Source of the DNA: Auanema rhodensis
Lineage: Eukaryota > Animalia > Nematoda
NCBI GenBank assembly: GCA_964057225.1
Contig: OZ059899.1
Coordinates: 10,850,001 to 10,914,000 of the forward strand
DNA: 64,000 nt
Direction: 5' to 3'
Shown here: piece by piece, positions 59,655-60,231 of the stretch
Position numbering within the stretch: position 1 is the stretch's first letter
How the letters are laid out: every line of letters starts with the position of its first letter
Translations under genes and position numbers: made by a program
Notes under the pieces: model-generated
Seen by the model: only the letters and a program-made list of their open reading frames with translations
Databases searched by the model: none
Told to the model about the DNA's origin: nothing

Positions 59655-60231
59655 TGTCACATCTGCAAGCACATGGTAAACATGTGCGCGCTATTCAAAT
59701 AGCGGGAGCCTGAACAAGCCCCGCCCACAACATGGGACACACATGGCACTCTTGCTTCTGGCGTAACCCAGATAGGTTGTCTTATAGCCATGTGAGTCTC
59801 ATCTCTATATCATCTCTATATATACTCTATTTAATACTTTATTATATCTCTTTATATTCTTTCTTAATGTAATTCTTATATTGTACTTCTTGTTATCTGA
59901 TAATGAATCCTTTTCGCTTTAAGTATTTGTCTTAATAAGGAAATCGGGGCGTTCGGGTCTGCCTACCTAAGGAACAAGGTAGAAGTACATATATCTTCCG
60001 ACCATGAAAAGACGGGAAGAAACAATATGTAACGCTATAATATGAAAAAATACAAGACATAGTCAACATTGATTTCCGAAAATAGTATCATGTTTGCTTG
60101 TTATTCAATTAGAACACTTATTTTTTGATTATTTTCTTAAAATATTCTTTTTTTTTTCTTTAACAAAGTTATGACTGAGATCAAAATTTGAACTTACTTT
60201 TGAACAATTAAACAGAAATTTAAAAAATATT

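What the first reader, a model, noticed from the sequence alone, without database searches (positions are those of the whole stretch)
60027..60038. Non-canonical TG...CG LTR termini with 4-bp TSDs
Seen: B LTRs run TGTCACAT...ATGTAACG. Insertions at GAAG, ACAT, GTTA and GGCT fix the terminal G as element sequence, and CTAT is consistent. A runs TGTTCCATA...TATGGAACG (that G is ambiguous with a 5-bp TSD, but neither reading gives CA). The PBS abuts the G with no spacer. Established: LTR integrases almost always join a CA-3' end. Inference: relaxed end specificity with little or no 3' processing at U5; tools that require TG..CA would miss or mis-trim these elements.
Basis: partly seen in the sequence, partly recalled or inferred. 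Interest (0 to 1): 0.7.

Follow-up and report, generated by a model that had tools for sequence, protein, structure and literature searches.

The report
Nematode retroelements with CG-ended LTRs
Two families of envelope-carrying jumping genes, likely from a nematode, sit in a tRNA gene array and end on the right in CG instead of the nearly universal CA, with clean 4-base target duplications; their integrase likely joins that end untrimmed, and standard annotation tools would likely miss or mis-trim them.

Summary
Confirmed and extended. Five insertions of family B and one of family A begin TG and end CG with 4-bp target duplications. In 4 of 5 B insertions the target cannot supply the G. Contigs from other sequencing runs keep the G in both families and settle the ambiguous family A. 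The two LTRs share only their last 16 bases (14 identical), so the CG end is conserved, while the left end stays canonical. The elements are Ty3/gypsy GAG-ENV(gB)-POL retroelements primed by tRNA-Gln, a published nematode group. New here: their integrases replace the proline that in foamy virus contacts the trimmed dinucleotide (0 of 8 close relatives keep it, 100 of 110 others do). Blunt joining at U5 is inferred, not shown. Non-CA ends are known (Tos17 TG..GA, insect errantiviruses AGT..AnT), but I found no TG..CG report; key nematode papers were not held. This scan earlier noted CG...CG ends in a diatom copia element, but not this. One old B-like copy has T, not G. New variant of a known kind.

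The parts
49909..60034 (+). Family B element (B5), 10,126 bp, 380-bp LTRs at 49909-50288 and 59655-60034, TG...CG ends
   Evidence: LTRs differ at 1 base
60027..60034 (+). U5 attachment end ATGTAACG of the B5 3' LTR (terminal CG)
   Evidence: contigs of 4 of 4 runs run to 60034 and stop or branch there
60035..60038 (+). 4-bp target duplication CTAT (partner 49905-49908); this one site is also compatible with a 5-bp duplication
50289..50300 (+). Primer-binding site, exact complement of the last 12 nt of tRNA-Gln, directly after the terminal G of the 5' LTR
   Evidence: tRNA-Gln 12-mer as listed in supplement file 2 of PMC13524379
59643..59654 (+). Polypurine tract abutting the TG of the 3' LTR
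51294..52793 (+). gag part of B5; it ends in an in-frame stop that the three other B copies covering this point do not share
52794..59048 (+). env(gB-like)-protease-RT-RNase H-integrase frame of B5 (2084 aa)
58464..58466 (+). Integrase loop lysine at the position of foamy virus Pro214 / HIV-1 Pro145
6762..16897 (-). Family B element (B1) nested in the integrase gene of A; identical 381-bp LTRs; TSD GAAG (+ strand); G cannot come from the target
21977..29674 (-). Family B element (B2), internally deleted; TSD ACAT; G cannot come from the target
29722..34874 (-). Family B element (B3), internally deleted, 5' LTR truncated; TSD GTTA; G cannot come from the target
41031..48144 (-). Family B element (B4), internally deleted, inserted inside a tRNA-Ile gene copy; TSD GGCT; G cannot come from the target
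692..19415 (+). Family A element, same gene order, interrupted by B1; 5' LTR cut after 233 bp; TSD TTAT
19077..19415 (+). Family A 3' LTR, 339 bp, TGTTCCATA...TATGGAACG; inverted repeat matches at 8 of 9 positions, the terminal base being the mismatch
   Evidence: shared contigs end at 19415 in 3 of 4 runs among the pieces shown
60149..60814 (.). One 666-bp unit of the host tandem array carrying tRNA-Ile(AAT); the insertion target

Best explanation
These are two young families of tRNA-Gln-primed, envelope-carrying Ty3/gypsy retroelements, likely of a nematode, with fixed unequal ends: CA at the left (U3) end, CG at the right (U5) end and 4-bp duplications; the integrase likely joins the U5 G directly, with no or at most one base trimmed. 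Shown: the ends, the duplications, the PBS abutting the G, conservation of the U5 end between families, and loss of the active-site loop proline in this clade. Inferred: reverse transcription starts at the G, RNase H removes the tRNA at or one base from the junction, so the cDNA ends at ...AACG-3', and a clade-specific integrase loop (K/H in place of P) accepts either purine at the last position in a normal concerted insertion.
For: Boundaries: 4-bp TSD with G inside fits 6 of 6 insertions, and 4 of 5 B sites exclude a target G. Independent contigs stop or branch after the G in 4 of 4 runs for B; for A, 3 of 4 runs show the G between LTR and PBS. A and B LTRs align only over the last 16 bases (14 of 16; E 0.053 on its own, but at the expected place) while RT-RNase H is 68% identical. 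Clean duplications at all six sites indicate normal two-ended insertion. PBS abuts the LTR in 6 of 8 published Gln-primed Caenorhabditis relatives and overlaps it by one base in the other 2. Ty1 is a precedent for unprocessed ends (PMC8487063). In foamy virus the trimmed dinucleotide passes over Pro214 (PMC3395085); the aligned residue is K or H in 8 of 8 close relatives and P in 100 of 110 others.
Against: No cDNA end or enzyme assay exists. RSV has Ser at the same position yet has CA ends and trims them (PMC7955051). Four more distant proteins also have H there, in a separate clade, with ends unknown. The loop change is one evolutionary event, so the Fisher P is not a test of co-evolution. 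Zero-spacer PBS occurs with a CA end too (L029). One diverged B-like copy in runs X1 and X4 has T, not G, after the AAC; its duplication was not visible. No relative's LTR ends could be read, so a clade-wide CG is not shown.
Confidence: 0.6

Rival explanations
1. The CG end is real, but the integrase does trim U5: RNase H leaves part of the tRNA, the cDNA runs into the PBS, and the integrase cuts after CG. Specificity has shifted; processing is not lost.
For: Retroviruses and Ty3 trim their ends. That HIV-1 RNase H leaves the last tRNA base attached is recalled, not from a call. A strictly kept U5 end suits a recognised cut site.
Against: No spacer lies between G and PBS in 4 of 4 B junctions or in A, and the residue that contacts the trimmed bases in foamy virus is replaced.
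Confidence: 0.25
2. The G is a neutral founder change tolerated by a lax integrase and kept only by descent; it has no link to the loop change.
For: It is a single A-to-G departure from the general ..AACA end (PMC3601003 consensus YNYAACA). RSV tolerates loss of CA at one end. One old copy has T.
Against: It persists in two families whose LTRs have otherwise diverged beyond alignment, and in A it is the only mismatch of a 9-bp inverted repeat.
Confidence: 0.2
3. The G is selected at the RNA level, where it closes a 5-bp hairpin with the self-complementary tRNA-Gln PBS; the integrase merely tolerates it. This can hold together with the best explanation.
For: Both the minimum-energy and the centroid fold of 50200-50420 pair the terminal G and the PBS into a small hairpin.
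Against: The region's fold is not significant (z -1.59; 13 of 200 shuffles as good), the hairpin has a 3-base loop, and it would hide the PBS.
Confidence: 0.1
4. Boundary error or assembly artefact: the G belongs to a 5-bp target duplication or to a collapsed repeat.
For: B5 and A each fit a 5-bp duplication; the region is a tandem array.
Against: 4 of 5 B sites exclude it, empty sites lack the G, the G also stands at the internal LTR-PBS junction, B copies differ from each other by 5-11 LTR bases, and other runs agree. This reading would not give CA either.
Confidence: 0.02

Closest known systems
Nematode GAG-ENV-POL Ty3/gypsy 'errantiviruses' with HSV/gB-type envelope (Chary and Hayashi, PMC13524379; first reported by Sacco et al. 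2022, which was not held)
   Same: Gene order gag-env(gB)-pol, about 10 kb, LTRs of about 340-380 bp, tRNA-Gln PBS abutting the 5' LTR as in 8 Caenorhabditis entries; best protein hits are Heterorhabditis, Caenorhabditis and Auanema.
   Different: The paper's main text has no 'target site' or 'TSD' and its table lists coordinates, not terminal bases; CG ends, 4-bp duplications and the loop change were not in what I read.
Drosophila errantiviruses (gypsy, ZAM, Idefix subgroups)
   Same: Envelope-carrying gypsy elements that join non-CA ends, with 4-base preferred targets (PMC5408687; PMC3601003).
   Different: Their ends are AGT..AnT, non-canonical on both sides; env follows pol; targets are sequence-specific. 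Here only U5 departs, and the six duplications share no motif.
Non-TGCA plant LTR elements (Tos17 TG..GA, soybean gypsy TG..CT, TARE1, AtRE1)
   Same: Active elements with unequal, non-palindromic ends (10.1101/137141).
   Different: Mostly Copia, in plants, with 5-bp duplications in rice; TG..CG is not among the seven motifs named in the passages read (supplementary table not readable).
Yeast Ty1 and C. elegans Cer1
   Same: Ty1 cDNA needs no 3' processing (PMC8487063); the Cer1 PBS lies directly next to the 5' LTR (PMC3315495).
   Different: Ty1 is a Copia-type element that requires CA in vitro; Cer1 uses tRNA-Pro and is listed as non-env; I could not read its ends.

Membership tests
Ty3/gypsy (Metaviridae) | pol order protease-RT-RNase H-integrase | tested here: met
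   both families
Ty3/gypsy (Metaviridae) | paired LTRs, PBS, polypurine tract, target duplication | tested here: met
   for B; for A the PBS is seen only in other runs and the tract is weak
Nematode GAG-ENV-POL errantivirus group | gB-type envelope between gag and pol | tested here: met
   PF24664 E 7e-16 in A; PF00606 E 3e-4 in B, below Pfam's cut-off; both upstream of the protease
Nematode GAG-ENV-POL errantivirus group | RT groups with nematode elements | tested here: met
   quick tree of 63 of 122 proteins: A, B and 7 hits (6 named as nematode, 1 unnamed) form one clade, SH-aLRT 98, no bootstrap; the paper's own sequences were not in the tree
Nematode GAG-ENV-POL errantivirus group | tRNA-Gln primer (Caenorhabditis subgroup) | tested here: met
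   12 of 12 match to the listed tRNA-Gln end
Canonical TG..CA LTR elements | CA-3' at both joined ends | tested here: not met
   CG at U5 in 10 of 10 intact ends in the window
Insect errantiviruses (gypsy/ZAM/Idefix) | AGT..AnT ends and env after pol | tested here: not met
Blunt-end integrators (Ty1-like) | no 3' processing of the cDNA end | not testable with these tools
   needs cDNA end sequencing or an enzyme assay

The most novel reading that the evidence does not exclude
A whole clade of tRNA-Gln-primed, envelope-carrying nematode retroelements has evolved a two-ended attachment system, CA at U3 and an untrimmed CG at U5, together with replacement of the integrase loop proline; a natural experiment on why the terminal CA is conserved.
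Probability: 0.3. Interest if true: 0.7.

Novelty: new variant of a known kind. Interest (0 to 1): 0.47.

Why it matters
Why integrases keep a terminal CA is poorly understood (stated in 10.1101/137141). Here one integrase inserts a CA end and a CG end together and cleanly, so the two natural ends give a built-in comparison, and a candidate residue is at hand. In practice, pipelines that look first for TG..CA with 5-bp duplications would likely miss these elements or call the sites with a neighbouring G as 5-bp duplications, so envelope-carrying nematode elements may be undercounted.

Tried and rejected
No genome is held for the window, so copies could not be counted genome-wide. Searches for relatives with DNA context gave none from the Gln-primed clade: metagenome contigs 2 loci at about 33% identity; viral contigs 0 loci, then 1 at 32%; a PBS pattern gave 12 viral loci, none with a match to the B polyprotein; prokaryote genome contigs gave 22 loci, none with a Gln PBS. 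Programmed readthrough between gag and env was rejected: the stop is private to B5 among 4 copies. Position-specific tRNA targeting as in Ty3 was rejected: insertions lie 64, 132 and 198 bp downstream of a tRNA gene, 424 bp upstream, and inside one. No RNA holder was listed. Contig depths were not used as copy numbers. The careful tree did not finish; the quick tree was used. Paper searches for TG..CG ends (listings of 20 of 31, 16 of 18, 4 of 4 and 30 of 84 papers) showed no title or abstract on them; such punctuation-heavy terms search poorly. Sacco 2022, Ganko 2001 and Britten 1995 are not held; the supplement of PMC3315495 could not be read; Repbase and Dfam cannot be searched here.

Full report
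Setting. The window is a tandem array of a 666-bp unit carrying tRNA-Ile(AAT), 20 genes called, broken by LTR elements. Family B has five insertions (6762-16897, 21977-29674, 29722-34874, 41031-48144 on the minus strand; 49909-60034 on the plus strand); family A has one (692-19415) that contains the first B copy. LTR pairs differ by 0, 1 and 2 substitutions in the three B copies with two full LTRs, so the insertions are young; different B copies differ by 5-11 LTR bases, so they are separate events.

Observation. All B LTRs start TGTCACAT and all intact ones end ATGTAACG; A runs TGTTCCATA...TATGGAACG. Testing duplication lengths 2-7 under both boundary choices, a 4-bp duplication with the G inside fits 6 of 6 insertions, and the 5-bp alternative fits only B5 and A. 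The finding's own coordinates are the one ambiguous B site. The G also stands between the 5' LTR and the PBS in 4 of 4 B junctions, where no target DNA is present.

Independent data. Fourteen public runs from 4 studies hold part of B; one may be the window's source. I laid 4 on the B LTR: in each, a contig runs to 60034 and stops or branches there. I laid 4 on the A LTR: in X1, X4 and X6 shared contigs end at 19415, and one contig per run continues from the G into the same tRNA-Gln PBS, which settles A. Against uniformity: one diverged B-like copy in X1 and X4 (12 differences in 163 bases in X4) has T after the AAC, with no duplication visible. These are assembled contigs, and only part of the pieces was shown.

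What the elements are. Both families have a gB-like fusion domain upstream of protease, RT, RNase H and integrase. The best hits are from Heterorhabditis, Caenorhabditis and Auanema, and a quick tree groups A and B with them (63 of 122 proteins kept: those 41% or more identical to B in RT-RNase H, plus all without the loop proline). This is the GAG-ENV-POL arrangement described for nematodes in PMC13524379 (abstract, passages and the 36 nematode rows of supplement file 2 read). Of the 36 rows, 16 have a PBS call and 8 are tRNA-Gln; in 6 of those 8 the PBS starts where the LTR ends and in 2 it overlaps by one base. The B PBS matches the listed tRNA-Gln 12-mer exactly.

The CG is conserved. A and B are 68% identical in RT-RNase H, yet their LTRs align only over the last 16 bases, 14 identical, ending AACG. 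In A the terminal base is the only mismatch in a 9-bp inverted repeat. The U3 end reads CA on the joined strand in both. So one integrase inserts a CA end and a CG end with precise duplications.

Integrase. The catalytic loop aligns without gaps to foamy virus integrase. At Pro214 (HIV-1 Pro145) A and B have lysine; 8 of 8 close relatives with this region have K or H, against P in 100 of 110 others (119 of 122 proteins aligned, one with a gap left out; two of the eight, P0007 and P0037, were assigned by source name, not by the tree). Three other columns also depart in the clade. In the foamy virus structure the trimmed dinucleotide passes over Pro214 (PMC3395085, passages). But RSV has serine there with normal CA ends (PMC7955051, passages), and the change is a single event, so it is a lead only.

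Mechanism. With no spacer, the first base added to the tRNA is opposite the G. Full tRNA removal gives a cDNA ending ...AACG-3', which would be joined as it is, as Ty1 does with CA (PMC8487063, passages). If one tRNA base is left (recalled for HIV-1), one base would be trimmed. These steps are inferred; I put blunt or near-blunt joining by a loop-altered integrase at 0.6. A small hairpin between the G and the PBS is predicted but not significant.

Prior knowledge. Non-CA ends are established: AGT..AnT in Drosophila errantiviruses (PMC5408687, passages and section 4; PMC3601003, passages) and seven plant types (10.1101/137141, passages; supplement closed). RSV integrates without CA at U3, and its U5 is said to be the stricter end (PMC12789967, passages), the reverse of what is seen here. 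Foamy virus has a proposed asymmetric processing (PMC1180852, passages). Cer1 has an abutting PBS (PMC3315495, passages). 10.1101/073510 (passages) added nothing. Four searches showed no TG..CG report, but Sacco 2022, Ganko 2001 and the repeat databases were out of reach, so the ends may already be on record there. Earlier scan notes report CG...CG ends in a diatom copia element, unchecked here.

Verdict. A real, conserved, unequal pair of LTR ends in a known nematode group; a new variant with a testable mechanism. Interest 0.47.

Noticed in passing
window 62066-63153 (-): A truncated non-LTR (LINE-type) RT fragment sits in the array between two copies of 68 bp of the unit (61998-62065 and 63154-63221), an unusually long apparent target duplication.
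   Followed up: partly
window 19063-19076: Family A has no clear polypurine tract; the 14 bases before its 3' LTR are shared by contigs whose upstream sequence differs, which suggests an atypical plus-strand primer site.
   Followed up: partly
window 18115-18846 (+): Family A has an extra 243-aa frame with no Pfam match between integrase and 3' LTR, and a long acidic integrase tail.
   Followed up: no
window 1-64000: About 45 kb of the 64 kb is retroelement inserted into one tRNA-Ile array at scattered positions; whether the array is preferred over the rest of the genome could not be tested.
   Followed up: partly
window 52791-52793: In-frame stop between gag and env in B5, not shared by the three other B copies that cover this point.
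   Followed up: yes
L029 4550-17132; related copy in L025 7797-13256: A eukaryotic LTR element inside a bacterial MAG has TA...GA ends with a 5-bp duplication and a nested TG...CA element whose PBS abuts its LTR: another non-canonical end type.
   Followed up: partly
L015-L036: 22 contigs of prokaryote MAGs encode gypsy/BEL-like pol proteins, likely eukaryotic contamination.
   Followed up: no
runs X1, X4, X6, X9 on window 19030-19445: Contigs show further A-related LTR variants that share the same U5 part but differ upstream.
   Followed up: no
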